A stretch of 64,000 nt of DNA, taken from the UHGV virus genome UHGV-1519562. One strand, given 5' to 3'. The notes under the pieces are model-generated. The model did not search any database and had not been told where the DNA came from. It worked only from the letters and a program-made list of their open reading frames with translations. This document shows positions 13,030 to 13,090 of the stretch, piece by piece (position 1 is the stretch's first letter; every line of letters begins with the position of its first letter). The DNA is from a virus. The position numbers were made by a program, and so were the translations under genes.

Positions 13030-13090
13030 AAAACAGGCCGGCGCGGGCACGGGCAAATTAAAATGGAGTTTAGTAATTTTTTTCTTGGTC
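13030..13090 (+). promoter_or_regulatory. conserved GC-rich element plus mini-ORF (MEFSNF...), copy 2, upstream of tail-fibre region
   Basis: GGCCGGCGCGGGCACGGGCAAATTAAAATGGAGTTTAGTAATTTTT. Confidence 0.45.

What the first reader, a model, noticed from the sequence alone, without database searches (positions are those of the whole stretch)
13030..13090. Three copies of a conserved GC-rich element with a six-codon mini-ORF at operon starts
At ~5070..5140, ~13030..13090 and ~49222..49290 a shared ~60-70 nt element appears: a GC-rich core (GGCCGGGGCGGAGACG / GGCCGGCGCGGGCACGGGC / CGGCGCGGAGACG), striking in this AT-rich genome, followed by AAT(T/A)AAAATGG(A/C)(G/T)TTTA(G/A)(T/C)AA(A/T)TTTTT. The ATG opens a tiny ORF (MALTNF or MEFSNF then stop in two copies). 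Each copy follows a terminator and precedes the first gene of a block (5159 gene, tail-fibre region, helicase operon). It differs from the abundant TTGAAA-N17-TATAAT promoters, suggesting a second promoter class or a leader-peptide/RNA regulatory device.
Basis: seen in the sequence. Interest (0 to 1): 0.6.

Follow-up and report, generated by a model that had tools for sequence, protein, structure and literature searches.

The report
Conserved phage hairpin-plus-A/T-tail leader element
The three GC-rich repeats are real copies of a conserved, uncatalogued hairpin-plus-A/T-rich signal that a large group of SPbeta-like gut phages keep just ahead of their helicase and DNA-polymerase genes; the six-codon mini-gene is a coincidence, and whether the signal works as RNA or as a special promoter is undecided.

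Summary
**Observation confirmed.** Three same-strand copies lie at 5069-5137, 13036-13083 and 49221-49288. Chance expects about 0.01-0.03.

**A family, not an oddity.** Diverged homologues sit at the position of copy 3, between RecJ (or a cell-wall hydrolase) and the helicase-DnaE genes, in dozens of related metagenomic phages with RecJ only 48-57% identical. The GC-rich core is a 5-bp hairpin with a conserved 9-nt loop. One subgroup extends it to 13 bp, with 7 of 13 pairs changed on both sides. A fixed 9-12 nt spacer, a conserved GG(G)TTTA and a T-run follow, usually ending 0-10 nt before the ribosome-binding site.

**Rejected readings.**
- The mini-ORF is not conserved: no ATG in most relatives, and a 1-nt indel shifts the frame between copies 2 and 3.
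- It is not a host-type promoter and matches no Rfam family.
- Only copies 1 and 2 follow a terminator.

**Verdict.** Best reading (about 0.4): a cis-acting RNA leader, probably a factor-binding operator controlling translation or stability. Main rival (about 0.3): a hairpin-type promoter for unidentified phage transcription machinery. No RNA polymerase or sigma factor was recognised in the roughly 78 kb examined. Copies 1 and 2 look lineage-specific, since a strict scan finds one copy per contig in 27 relatives.

The parts
5069..5137 (+). Copy c1, whole element: 5' extension 5069-5091, GC core, A/T tail
   Evidence: Recovered by the group A covariance model at 18.2 bits. Conserved in strain variants L004 and L334-L337.
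5092..5110 (+). c1 GC core, the P2-equivalent hairpin: GGCCG / loop GGGCGGAGA / CGTGC. Only 3 of 5 pairs form.
5112..5137 (+). c1 A/T tail AATAAAAATGGCTTTAACAAATTTTT. The ribosome-binding GGAG is at 5148-5151 and the start codon at 5159.
4998..5029 (+). Intrinsic terminator upstream of c1. A weak TATAAT lies at about 5036-5041, between it and the element.
   Evidence: sequence.
12994..13023 (+). Terminator-like hairpin plus U-run after tRNA-Gln, immediately upstream of c2
   Evidence: -9.6 kcal/mol, z = -3.3. Sequence.
13036..13083 (+). Copy c2. It lacks the 5' extension. Core 13036-13054 is GGCCG / GCGCGGGCA / CGGGC (4 of 5 pairs); tail 13056-13081. The next gene starts at 13178.
   Evidence: Covariance-model hit at 14 bits.
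49221..49288 (+). Copy c3, the ancestral position. It starts 3 nt after the RecJ stop codon and ends 9 nt before the ribosome-binding site (AGGAG 49298-49302; ATG 49313).
   Evidence: Covariance-model hit at 19.8 bits. Positional homologues in about 90 related loci.
49233..49243 (+). Small hairpin AGCT-GGA-AGCT in the 5' extension of c3. The variant AGTT-AGA-AGCT in L135 keeps pairing through a G.U pair.
49244..49262 (+). c3 hairpin P2: CATCG / 9-nt loop GCGCGGAGA / CGATG. All 5 pairs form, and a sixth is possible between 49243 and 49263.
49263..49288 (+). c3 A/T tail AATTAAAATGGAGTTTAGTAATTTTT, identical to the c2 tail
5119..5139 (+). Mini-ORF MALTNF* in c1, judged fortuitous
13063..13122 (+). 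The same ATG in c2 opens a 19-codon ORF, judged fortuitous
49270..49290 (+). Mini-ORF MEFSNF* in c3, judged fortuitous

Best explanation
**What it is.** The element is a cis-acting leader module that acts in the mRNA. It has three parts:

1. A hairpin of 5 bp in this phage and up to 13 bp in relatives, with a sequence-conserved 9-nt loop (G..C....A, closed by G-C and C-G pairs).
2. A spacer of constant length, 9-12 nt and A-rich.
3. A conserved stretch, GG(G)UUUA-N2-4-AUUUUU, that is probably single-stranded and runs into the ribosome-binding site of the next gene.

**How it most likely works.** It is probably the docking site (operator) of a phage- or host-encoded RNA-binding factor. That factor would set translation initiation and/or stability of the downstream message.

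**Where it came from.** Its ancestral job is control of the small-gene/helicase/DnaE replication operon (the c3 site). In this lineage the module was copied in front of two further gene blocks (c1, c2), which would then share the same control.

**Shown versus inferred.**

- Shown: repetition, deep conservation, base-paired hairpin with compensatory changes, fixed spacing, adjacency to the ribosome-binding site, non-coding nature.
- Inferred: action at RNA level, existence of a binding factor, and the direction of regulation.
For: **Hairpin.**

- In the 14 distinct group A sequences, 13 pairs are 92.7% paired and 7 pairs change on both sides. None of 500 shuffles reaches the observed covariation, and slid controls are far lower.
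- One step series is visible: A-U in L225, G.U in L239, G-C in L227.
- The 5-bp P2 stem with its 9-nt loop holds across all groups, including c1-c3, L136 and L143. It is 84% paired, 3 of 5 pairs change on both sides, and the score is 0.293 against at most 0.156 when slid.
- Group A folds as predicted, with z = -2.3 to -4.5.

**Selection.** The tail and loop stay about 85% identical between phages whose RecJ proteins are only 57% identical.

**Placement.**

- The element is always co-oriented with the genes.
- Its T-run ends 0-10 nt before the ribosome-binding site in five unrelated gene contexts, with no host-type promoter in between. The contexts are gene 5159, two unrelated small-protein families, the helicase itself, and c3.
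- In c3, L169 and most of group A it follows the upstream stop codon directly, without a terminator, so it must be co-transcribed.
- c1 has a weak TATAAT upstream that would place the element in a 5' untranslated region.
- Terminators in this phage are evidently leaky: three other junctions run from terminator to ribosome-binding site with no promoter. Sitting behind a terminator therefore does not exclude transcription.

**No special machinery found.** No sigma factor or RNA polymerase was recognised by Pfam, PHROGs or NCBIfam in the window. YonO gave no tblastn hit in the window, in 13.6 kb upstream, or in 2 Mb of related loci.
Against: - c1, c2, L136/L143 and group B sit within 8-15 nt of an intrinsic terminator with no room for a promoter. 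RNA containing them can arise only by read-through.
- In group B, L223, L160 and L227 a strong host-type promoter lies between the element and the gene, so most transcripts of that gene lack the element. Even so, the group B loop and tail are invariant and its stem shows a C-G to U-A swap.
- c2 is about 90 nt from its gene.
- In this window's own copies the hairpin is weak. c1 forms 3 of 5 pairs and c2 forms 4 of 5, and the folds are no better than shuffles.
- G.U cells (10) and A.C cells (8) are about equally common in the stems. That does not show the strand bias expected of a purely RNA structure.
- No candidate RNA-binding regulator was identified.
- The second, A/U-only hairpin in the tail has no covariation and is broken without compensation in 5 of 14 variants.
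Confidence: 0.4

Rival explanations
1. The element is a phage-specific promoter or RNA-start signal read at DNA level. An extruded or single-stranded hairpin would be recognised by a polymerase or initiation factor not yet identified. The fixed A-rich spacer would act as a ruler, and transcription would start at the conserved GG or just after the T-run. The logic is that of N4 virion-polymerase hairpin promoters.
For: - It lies directly behind terminators in four independent contexts with no host-type promoter.
- It occupies the slot (terminator - X - ribosome-binding site - helicase) where relatives L144 and L145 carry a host-type promoter.
- It occurs in tandem with host-type promoters in group B, L223 and group C.
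- The spacing from hairpin base to GG is a constant 9-12 nt whether the stem is 5 or 13 bp long, by direct reading of the sequences.
- Purines follow the T-run.
- G.T and A.C mismatches occur about equally, as expected if both DNA strands matter.
- There is a precedent. N4 has three hairpin promoters with a GC-rich centre flanked by inverted repeats, in which stem identity is free as long as pairing is kept (PMC4496689). Two-barrel phage polymerases prefer single-stranded templates (bioRxiv 10.1101/2020.03.07.982082).
- The promoter of SPbeta's own polymerase YonO is still undefined (PMC5467207).
Against: - No RNA polymerase or sigma factor was recognised in about 78 kb of the early/replication arm, nor in 2 Mb of related loci.
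- Group A relatives have exactly one copy per contig by a strict core pattern (27 contigs), and profile searches found one per RecJ-centred locus. That would be a very small promoter class.
- The loop is 9 nt against 3 nt in N4.
- About 20 nt downstream of the putative GG start are conserved, which promoters do not need.
- The group A model does not hit the YonO start region of SPbeta.
Confidence: 0.3
2. The element is a DNA-level replication signal: an origin component or a primase/helicase loading site. It would combine a hairpin with an adjacent A/T-rich unwinding tract.
For: - In relatives it is found once per contig or locus examined, always inside the replication module, between the primase (YorJ-like)/RecJ genes and the helicase/DnaE genes.
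- It persists whether or not it adjoins a ribosome-binding site, and even inside an ORF in group C, as lambdoid origins do.
- Stem mismatches show no strand bias.
Against: - There are no iterons or repeated binding sites.
- It is strictly co-oriented with transcription and, outside group C, positioned just before genes.
- The two extra copies in this phage lie far from the replication genes, at the starts of unrelated blocks.
- GC skew shows no change at any copy.
Confidence: 0.08
3. The element is a processive antitermination signal of the put or nut type. RNA polymerase that transcribes it would become resistant to downstream terminators.
For: - Several copies lie at the heads of long gene blocks.
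- It combines a hairpin with a conserved single-stranded box.
- c1 contains CTTTAACAA, the core of the E. coli rrn boxA (own knowledge; sequence).
Against: - The boxA-like string is absent from c2, c3 and all relatives.
- The element lies after terminators rather than before them.
- No N-, Q- or NusG-like gene was recognised.
- Strong host-type promoters recur inside the downstream blocks.
Confidence: 0.07
4. The element is a decaying remnant of the 3' end of a small gene, with no function of its own. That gene is intact in group C relatives, where it encodes ..RPxxxxENPNQKxDLEIF.. .
For: In group C the homologous nucleotides are read in frame, and flanking codons show synonymous changes.
Against: - The stem shows compensatory changes.
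- Nucleotides are strongly conserved at RecJ identities of 50-57%.
- Spacing is fixed.
- The element was duplicated to two new sites.
- The codons GATTTAGAAATTTTT show no synonymous variation at all across the group C phages seen.
Confidence: 0.05
5. The element works through a leader peptide: translation of the six-codon mini-ORF would control the downstream gene.
For: Six-codon ORFs are present in c1, c3 and L143.
Against: - The ATG is missing in L136-L138, in most of group A (L227 is an exception) and in group B.
- c2's ORF is 19 codons long.
- The frame differs between copies because of a 1-nt indel.
- There is no properly spaced ribosome-binding site and no alternative terminator/antiterminator pairing.
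Confidence: 0.02

Closest known systems
Translational operators of T4/RB69 gene 43 (DNA polymerase) and gene 32 (own knowledge)
   Same: A short hairpin with a sequence-specific loop, or a structured nucleation site. It is followed by an A/U-rich single-stranded stretch running into the ribosome-binding site of a replication gene. Regulation is post-transcriptional.
   Different: - No sequence similarity.
- The binding protein here is unknown.
- The element is not tied to one downstream gene.
- It is also found behind terminators and upstream of promoters.
N4 virion RNA polymerase early promoters (PMC4496689)
   Same: - Three copies per genome.
- A GC-rich centre flanked by inverted repeats that form a hairpin.
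- Stem bases are free to vary while pairing is kept.
- A fixed spacer leads to the start site.
   Different: - The N4 loop is 3 nt and the stem 5-7 bp; here the loop is 9 nt and the stem 5-13 bp.
- No giant virion polymerase was recognised in the sequence examined.
- The host is probably a Firmicute.
- Start sites are unmapped.
Start-associated sequences and extended SAS of Cluster K mycobacteriophages (PMC3203893)
   Same: - A conserved asymmetric motif a few nt upstream of start codons of unrelated non-structural genes.
- A single orientation.
- An inverted repeat upstream.
- Function still unknown.
   Different: - SAS includes the ribosome-binding site itself and occurs 11-19 times per genome.
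- The arms of its inverted repeat keep their sequence and do not support base pairing.
- Here the arms covary and the motif stops short of the ribosome-binding site.
T7 RNase III processing sites and SP82 Bs-RNase III sites (own knowledge)
   Same: Repeated intercistronic hairpins just ahead of ribosome-binding sites. They separate and stabilise downstream messages.
   Different: RNase III needs about 20 bp of duplex. The copies in this window have 3-6 bp, and their conserved loop and tail would be irrelevant to RNase III.
Promoter of the SPbeta polymerase YonO (PMC5467207)
   Same: - The phage is related to SPbeta (RecJ/YorK, DnaE/YorL, YorF/G/H/I/J synteny).
- SPbeta carries a covarying hairpin followed by an invariant block in the interval where the YonO start site was mapped.
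   Different: - No YonO gene was seen here.
- The covariance model of the element does not match the SPbeta site.
- The SPbeta site heads late genes, not replication genes.

Membership tests
Host sigma-A/sigma-70 promoter | A -35 TTGACA-like and a -10 TATAAT-like hexamer, 16-18 bp apart, with A at -11 and T at -7 | tested here: not met
   - No site at or above threshold lies in the three elements.
- TTGAAA in c1 and c3 has GC-rich sequence where the -10 should be.
- The only recurrent -10-like string, TAAAAT, is TAAAAC in the L158-type variants, TAAAAA in L136 and CAAAAT in L183 and L198.
- Any -10 inside the tail would place the start within the ribosome-binding site.
Any Rfam 15 RNA family | A covariance-model score at or above the family's gathering threshold | tested here: not met
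   - Whole window: only tRNAs.
- Permissive scans of c1, c3 and L169 give only chance-level hits.
- Six related loci: none.
Leader-peptide attenuator | A conserved, translatable short ORF with its own ribosome-binding site | tested here: not met
   The start codon is absent in most homologues, the ORF length is 6 or 19 codons, and the frame is not conserved.
Leader-peptide attenuator | Mutually exclusive terminator and antiterminator hairpins | tested here: not met
   No GC-rich alternative pairing partner lies downstream, and the U-run is about 25 nt from the GC hairpin.
Intrinsic terminator | A GC-rich hairpin immediately followed by a U-run | tested here: not met
   The hairpin and the T-run are separated by 20-27 nt of conserved sequence. 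True terminators lie upstream of c1 and c2.
N4-type hairpin promoter | A hairpin whose stem may vary provided pairing is kept | tested here: met
N4-type hairpin promoter | A 3-nt loop, a 5-7 bp stem centred at -11, and a start site 8 nt downstream | tested here: not met
   The loop is 9 nt and the stem 5-13 bp. The start site cannot be tested here.
N4-type hairpin promoter | A cognate phage-encoded polymerase | tested here: inconclusive
   None was recognised in the window, 13.6 kb upstream, or 2 Mb of related loci. About 60 kb of the genome, the late arm, was not seen.
Translational operator (T4 gene 43/32 type) | A hairpin or structured site plus a single-stranded tract abutting the ribosome-binding site in the mRNA | tested here: met
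   This holds for c1, c3, L136, L143 and group A, where the T-run lies 0-10 nt from the ribosome-binding site. It does not hold for c2, group B or L223.
Translational operator (T4 gene 43/32 type) | Specific binding by a regulatory protein, with repression of translation | not testable with these tools
   Needs gel-shift assays, toeprinting or reporter assays.
lambda nut / rrn antiterminator | A boxA consensus next to a boxB hairpin, placed downstream of a promoter and upstream of terminators | tested here: not met
   CTTTAACAA occurs only in c1, and c2, c3 and the relatives differ. The element lies after terminators.
Cluster K SAS/ESAS | The 13-bp GGGATAGGAGCCC motif 3-7 bp before the start codon, with inverted-repeat arms that keep their sequence | tested here: not met
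   The sequence is different, and the arms covary rather than staying conserved (PMC3203893).
YonO promoter of SPbeta | Sequence or structure shared with the region of the mapped YonO start site | tested here: not met
   Covariance model R1 gives no hit in the yonN-yonK gap of SPbeta or of 47 relatives. Only a loose architectural resemblance remains.

The most novel reading that the evidence does not exclude
The element would be a hairpin-dependent start signal for RNA synthesis, either a promoter or a primase site. It would be used by a non-host enzyme of SPbeta-like gut phages, making it a second natural class of structured-DNA promoters after N4. It might also be related in logic to the still-undefined promoter of the single-chain two-barrel polymerase YonO. 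SPbeta itself carries a covarying hairpin plus an invariant block in the interval where the YonO start site was mapped.
Probability: 0.22. Interest if true: 0.8.

Novelty: new variant of a known kind. Interest (0 to 1): 0.55.

Why it matters
- It defines a conserved, covariation-supported cis-element that is absent from Rfam. The family spans a large, uncultured clade of 100-200 kb SPbeta-like gut phages, and the element sits at the entrance to their helicase/DNA-polymerase operon.
- It gives a concrete handle on how these phages time or dose replication-gene expression. In this lineage it also shows how a regulatory module is copied to bring new gene blocks under the same control.
- If it proves to be a hairpin promoter, it would extend a mechanism known only from N4-like phages. 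It could also guide the search for the YonO promoter.
- It removes a tempting false lead, the six-codon 'leader peptide'.

Tried and rejected
**Searches for known families or more copies.**

- Rfam at gathering and permissive thresholds found only tRNAs or chance hits.
- GenBank phages have no near match to the region, and blastn with the element finds no cultured phage carrying it.
- Exact-pattern scans of IMG/VR, metagenome and GTDB genome contigs found only the same lineage plus chance hits.

**Readings ruled out.**

- Host-type promoter.
- Leader peptide.
- Coding fragment. The frames differ between copies, although related sequence is coding in group C.
- A single cognate small protein encoded just downstream. 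The downstream small genes fall into two unrelated families, and L136 and L143 have none.
- A second A/U hairpin in the tail: no covariation, and breaks are not compensated.
- Loop-tail pseudoknots (AACC with GGUU, CCUA with UAGG). By direct inspection of the sequences, these fit most of group A but not L206, group B or c1-c3.

**Search for a phage polymerase.**

- YonO gave no hit in the window, in 2 Mb of related loci, or in 13.6 kb upstream.
- A YonO-profile scan of IMG/VR returned only its top 80 hits, all unrelated contigs mostly from isolate-genome prophages, so the gut phages could not be assessed.
- Pfam, PHROGs and NCBIfam on about 80 window ORFs found no sigma factor, RNA polymerase or classical RNA-binding regulator.
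- The PDB sequence search with the 557-aa early protein returned nothing.

**Other.**

- Matching the element model to the SPbeta YonO start region gave no hit.
- The published YonO start coordinate could not be mapped onto the phage record, because the host genome is not in the available collections.
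Full report
**1. The observation**

The three sites were read directly and aligned. All are on the + strand, the strand of the surrounding genes.

| Copy | Span | GC core | A/T tail |
|---|---|---|---|
| c1 | 5069-5137 | 5092-5110 | 5112-5137 |
| c2 | 13036-13083 | 13036-13054 | 13056-13081 |
| c3 | 49221-49288 | 49244-49262 | 49263-49288 |

- A degenerate core-plus-tail pattern finds c1 and c2 with no mismatch, against 0.01 expected by chance. c3 escapes only because its spacer is one base shorter.
- The tail pattern finds exactly the three sites, against 0.03 expected.
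- The c2 and c3 tails are identical over 26 nt.
- c1 and c3 share a further 5' stretch, TTTGAAA(C/G)TTTTAGCT-N3-AGCT.
- The window is 27-39% G+C, so the cores do stand out.

- c1 follows a clear terminator, and c2 a hairpin plus U-run after tRNA-Gln. c3 begins 3 nt after the RecJ stop codon with no terminator.
- c1 and c3 end 9-10 nt before a ribosome-binding site. c2 is about 90 nt from its gene.

**2. What genome this is**

- The window carries 16 tRNA genes.
- It has a replication module: Sak4-like ATPase, DnaB, DnaG-like primase, RecJ, a Dda/PIF1-type helicase with an intein-like insert, and DnaE. It also has topoisomerase II, ligase, NrdD and ThyX genes, and an RNA-repair cluster.
- RecJ is 36-37% identical to YorK of SPbeta-like Bacillus phages and of Geobacillus virus E3. 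Neighbouring genes hit the Pfam families YorF and YorH.
- No GenBank phage is close at DNA level.
- The same lineage (RecJ 94-100% identical) is common in metagenome assemblies of about 130-140 kb. One of them, IMG/VR contig 3300045988_145614, carries all three copies with a few substitutions.

**3. The element is a member of a family**

Exact-pattern scans of IMG/VR, metagenomes and GTDB genomes found nothing beyond this lineage. I therefore collected the RecJ neighbourhoods of relatives with 48-57% identical RecJ: 12 loci through encoding contigs and 80 through a profile scan of IMG/VR.

**Synteny.** The gene order is constant: RecJ, often a cell-wall hydrolase, a small gene, the helicase, then DnaE.

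**Profile search.** It finds one + strand hit per locus in the interval between RecJ or the hydrolase and the small gene or helicase. The forms are as follows.

- **L136-L138 and L143.** Terminator, then ..GGCCGGGCCGGACACGGTGAATTAAAAAGGGTTTTAGAAATTTTT.., then the ribosome-binding site and the helicase start.
- **Group A (about 45 loci).** A long hairpin, then GAAACTAAAATAGGGTTTACTATTTTT, then the ribosome-binding site and ATG.
- **Group B and L223.** A shorter hairpin and the same tail, followed by a strong host-type promoter.
- **Group C.** A similar sequence lies inside a small ORF.

**Covariance model.** A model built from group A alone was searched over the window and 92 loci. Its best + strand hits in the window are exactly c3, c1 and c2, at 19.8, 18.2 and 14 bits. 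One weak minus-strand hit scores between c1 and c2.

**Copy number.** A strict group A core pattern occurs once, and only once, in each of 27 IMG/VR contigs. No further copy exists in 10 kb upstream of the window. c3 is therefore the ancestral site, and c1 and c2 are probably additions specific to this lineage. The genes after c1, c2 and c3 are unrelated to one another.

**4. Anatomy**

**Hairpin in group A.**

- It consists of P1 (8 bp), a one-base bulge, and P2 (5 bp) closing a 9-nt loop.
- On 14 distinct sequences the 13 pairs are 92.7% paired, and 7 pairs change on both sides. Examples are CUGCGGAC/GUCCGCAG, CGACGAAC/GUUCGUCG, UGACGAAC/GUUCGUCA and GGAGGAC/GUCCUCC.
- None of 500 column shuffles reaches the observed covariation score. 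Sliding the 3' partners by 1-3 columns drops pairing to 32-55%.
- L225, L239 and L227 show the series A-U, G.U, G-C.
- These sequences fold as drawn, with z-scores of -2.3 to -4.5.

**P2 across all groups.**

- Cutting out only P2 and its loop from every group, including c1, c2, c3, L136 and L143, gives 84% pairing.
- Three of five pairs change on both sides.
- The covariation score is 0.293, against at most 0.156 when slid.
- So the 'GC-rich core' of the finding is this hairpin. c3 forms all five pairs, CATCG/CGATG. c2 forms 4 of 5 and c1 forms 3 of 5, and taken alone their folds are no better than shuffles.

**Conserved sequence features.**

- Loop positions 1 (G) and 4 (C) are invariant, and position 9 is A in 13 of 15 sequences. 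The two closing pairs are invariant or nearly so.
- From the base of the whole hairpin to a conserved GG is 9-12 nt in every group, whether the stem is 5 or 13 bp. This comes from reading the sequences.
- Then come GG(G)TTTA, 2-4 variable bases and A-T5-7.
- A possible A/U hairpin in the tail (AAAAUAG/CUAUUUU) has no covariation. It is broken without compensation by a U-to-C change in 5 of 14 variants.
- Loop-tail pseudoknots fit most of group A but not L206, group B or the window's copies.
- In the stems, G.U cells (10) and A.C cells (8) are about equally frequent. The data therefore do not say which strand pairs.

**5. What it is not**

- **Not a leader peptide.** The ATG is AAG in L136-L138, ATA or ATT in most of group A, and ATA in group B. 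c2's ORF has 19 codons. c2 and c3 differ by a 1-nt indel between core and tail, so the same nucleotides fall in different frames. No ribosome-binding site is suitably placed.
- **Not a host-type promoter.** The phage's own host-type promoters have a very recognisable form, TTTTTAAAAAAT..T(G/A)ATATAATAT.TATAGAAA, with at least 15 copies. The element has no -10 or -35 in register. The only recurrent -10-like string carries C or A at the invariant T in many relatives.
- **Not an intrinsic terminator.** The U-run is 20-27 nt from the GC hairpin.
- **Not in Rfam**.
- **Not in any cultured phage record**.

**6. Contexts, and what they imply**

One search sorts the family into two arrangements.

- **Arrangement 1.** The T-run ends 0-10 nt before a ribosome-binding site, with no host-type promoter. 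It covers c1, c3, L136/L143 and most of group A. The downstream gene is one of five unrelated kinds.
- **Arrangement 2.** A strong host-type promoter lies between element and gene. It covers group B, L223, L160, L227 and group C.

L160 and L227 are near-identical to arrangement-1 relatives up to the former start codon. Group B keeps the relic AGGTAAAA of the former ribosome-binding site. Arrangement 2 therefore looks secondary, created by insertion of a promoter-plus-gene cassette.

Upstream contexts also vary.

- The element follows a stop codon directly in c3, L169 and most of group A.
- It sits 8-15 nt behind a terminator in c1, c2, L136/L143 and group B.
- L144 and L145 have no element, and a host-type promoter occupies the same slot.
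- The window also has three junctions that run from terminator to ribosome-binding site with neither promoter nor element. Read-through of terminators is therefore part of this phage's expression strategy.

**7. Mechanism**

Two readings survive.

**(a) RNA leader or operator (about 0.4).**

- A base-paired stem with compensatory changes and a conserved loop is the signature of a structured RNA recognised by a factor.
- So is a conserved single-stranded tract running into the ribosome-binding site of whatever gene follows.
- The element is necessarily co-transcribed wherever no terminator precedes it.
- This reading needs no machinery that was not found.
- Its weak points are the terminator-proximal copies, arrangement 2 in group B (where loop and tail are still invariant and the stem has a C-G/U-A swap), the 90-nt gap at c2, and the lack of G.U bias.

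**(b) Hairpin-type promoter or start signal at DNA level (about 0.3).**

- It explains the position behind terminators, the equivalence with the promoter slot of L144, the tandem arrangement with host-type promoters, the fixed hairpin-to-GG distance and the lack of strand bias.
- N4 provides a precedent in which three promoters are extruded hairpins whose stems need only pair (PMC4496689).
- Against it, no polymerase or sigma factor was recognised in about 78 kb of the early arm or in 2 Mb of related loci.
- Strict scans of relatives find one copy per contig.
- The loop is 9 nt rather than 3.
- The conserved 20 nt after the putative start are unexplained.

I commit to (a) as most likely, without strong conviction. 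The lesser rivals, each at or below 0.08, are a replication or priming site, put/nut-like antitermination, a functionless gene remnant, and the leader peptide.

**8. Relation to SPbeta's own polymerase**

- SPbeta transcribes its late genes with YonO from a start site upstream of yonK. The promoter is undefined (PMC5467207).
- The oligonucleotides used for that primer extension bracket a 200-nt interval of the yonN-yonK gap.
- At the 5' edge of the block conserved among Bacillus SPbeta-like phages lies a hairpin whose stem covaries: CTGC/GCAG, CTAC/GTAG, GGAG/CTCC. An invariant AGTCGGATAATnGTCATTTATGAGGG follows it.
- The architecture is reminiscent of the element: hairpin, short spacer, A(A/T)AATAG..TTTA.
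- But the element's covariance model does not hit this site, and I could not place the published coordinate on the phage record. This is a lead, not evidence.

**9. Novelty and score**

- The kind of thing is known: a phage cis-regulatory hairpin next to a start site, or a structured promoter.
- This family is not catalogued. It has clear covariation and is widespread in a large uncultured phage clade.
- I rate it a new variant of a known kind, with interest 0.55.
- The most novel reading not excluded is a second class of hairpin promoters, perhaps for a YonO-like enzyme. It gets probability about 0.22 and interest 0.8 if true.

Noticed in passing
window 20167-28787: A tRNA array (20167-21479) is followed by a Ro/TROVE-like RNA-binding protein (21535-23058). 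After it come a cyclic-phosphate receiver domain protein, an RlaP-like nucleotidyltransferase, phosphoesterases and an RNA ligase (27510-28787). This is an RNA-repair module of the kind that usually comes with a Y RNA, which might lie in 21020-21530.
   Followed up: no
window 12158-12230: ARAGORN calls a tRNA with an 8-nt anticodon loop (anticodon 'tgaa') and no assigned amino acid. Rfam also scores it as a tRNA (51 bits).
   Followed up: no
window 49500-51779: The Dda/PIF1-type helicase carries a LAGLIDADG (intein-like) insert. Relatives have about 395-aa helicases without it, and DnaE genes interrupted by other inserts.
   Followed up: partly
L139, L146, L225-L227: Some related phages have many in-frame TAG codons in conserved genes (up to 14 in RecJ), so TAG is read as a sense codon. 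The loci tested for group A (other than L225-L227), L136, L143 and L144 show none.
   Followed up: partly
window, e.g. 2895-2923, 5936-5975, 8032-8070, 24205-24245, 27160-27200, 34560-34600, 40774-40800, 41876-41905: The phage's host-type promoters share an extended consensus, TTTTTAAAAAAT-N-T(G/A)ATATAATAT(A/T)TATAGAAA. It reaches well beyond the -10 hexamer and occurs at least 15 times.
   Followed up: partly
window 33317-33381, 41154-41215, 42927-43009: Intrinsic terminators are followed directly by a ribosome-binding site and a gene, with no promoter. This implies systematic terminator read-through or attenuation within operons.
   Followed up: no
L014 (SPbeta NC_001884, about 60430-60483, minus strand): In the yonN-yonK gap, a hairpin AACTGC-GGCTGGTCATT-GCAGTT has a stem that covaries among Bacillus SPbeta-like phages. 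An invariant AGTCGGATAATnGTCATTTATGAGGG follows it. It lies between the oligonucleotides used to map the YonO start site, so it is a candidate YonO promoter or the 5' end of the non-coding RNA.
   Followed up: partly
L146 10706-11155, L153 12830-13141, L139 7742-8074 and similar: In group C relatives the element-like sequence is the in-frame 3' part of a small ORF (..RPxxxxENPNQKxDLEIF..). The 15 nt GATTTAGAAATTTTT show no synonymous variation across the group C variants seen, apart from two non-synonymous variants. This suggests a nucleotide-level constraint inside a coding region.
   Followed up: partly
window 5080-5094: c1 contains three tandem pentamers, TTAGC TTAGC TTAGG. In the sister strain (L004) they read TTAGC TTGGC TTATG. 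Their meaning is unknown.
   Followed up: no
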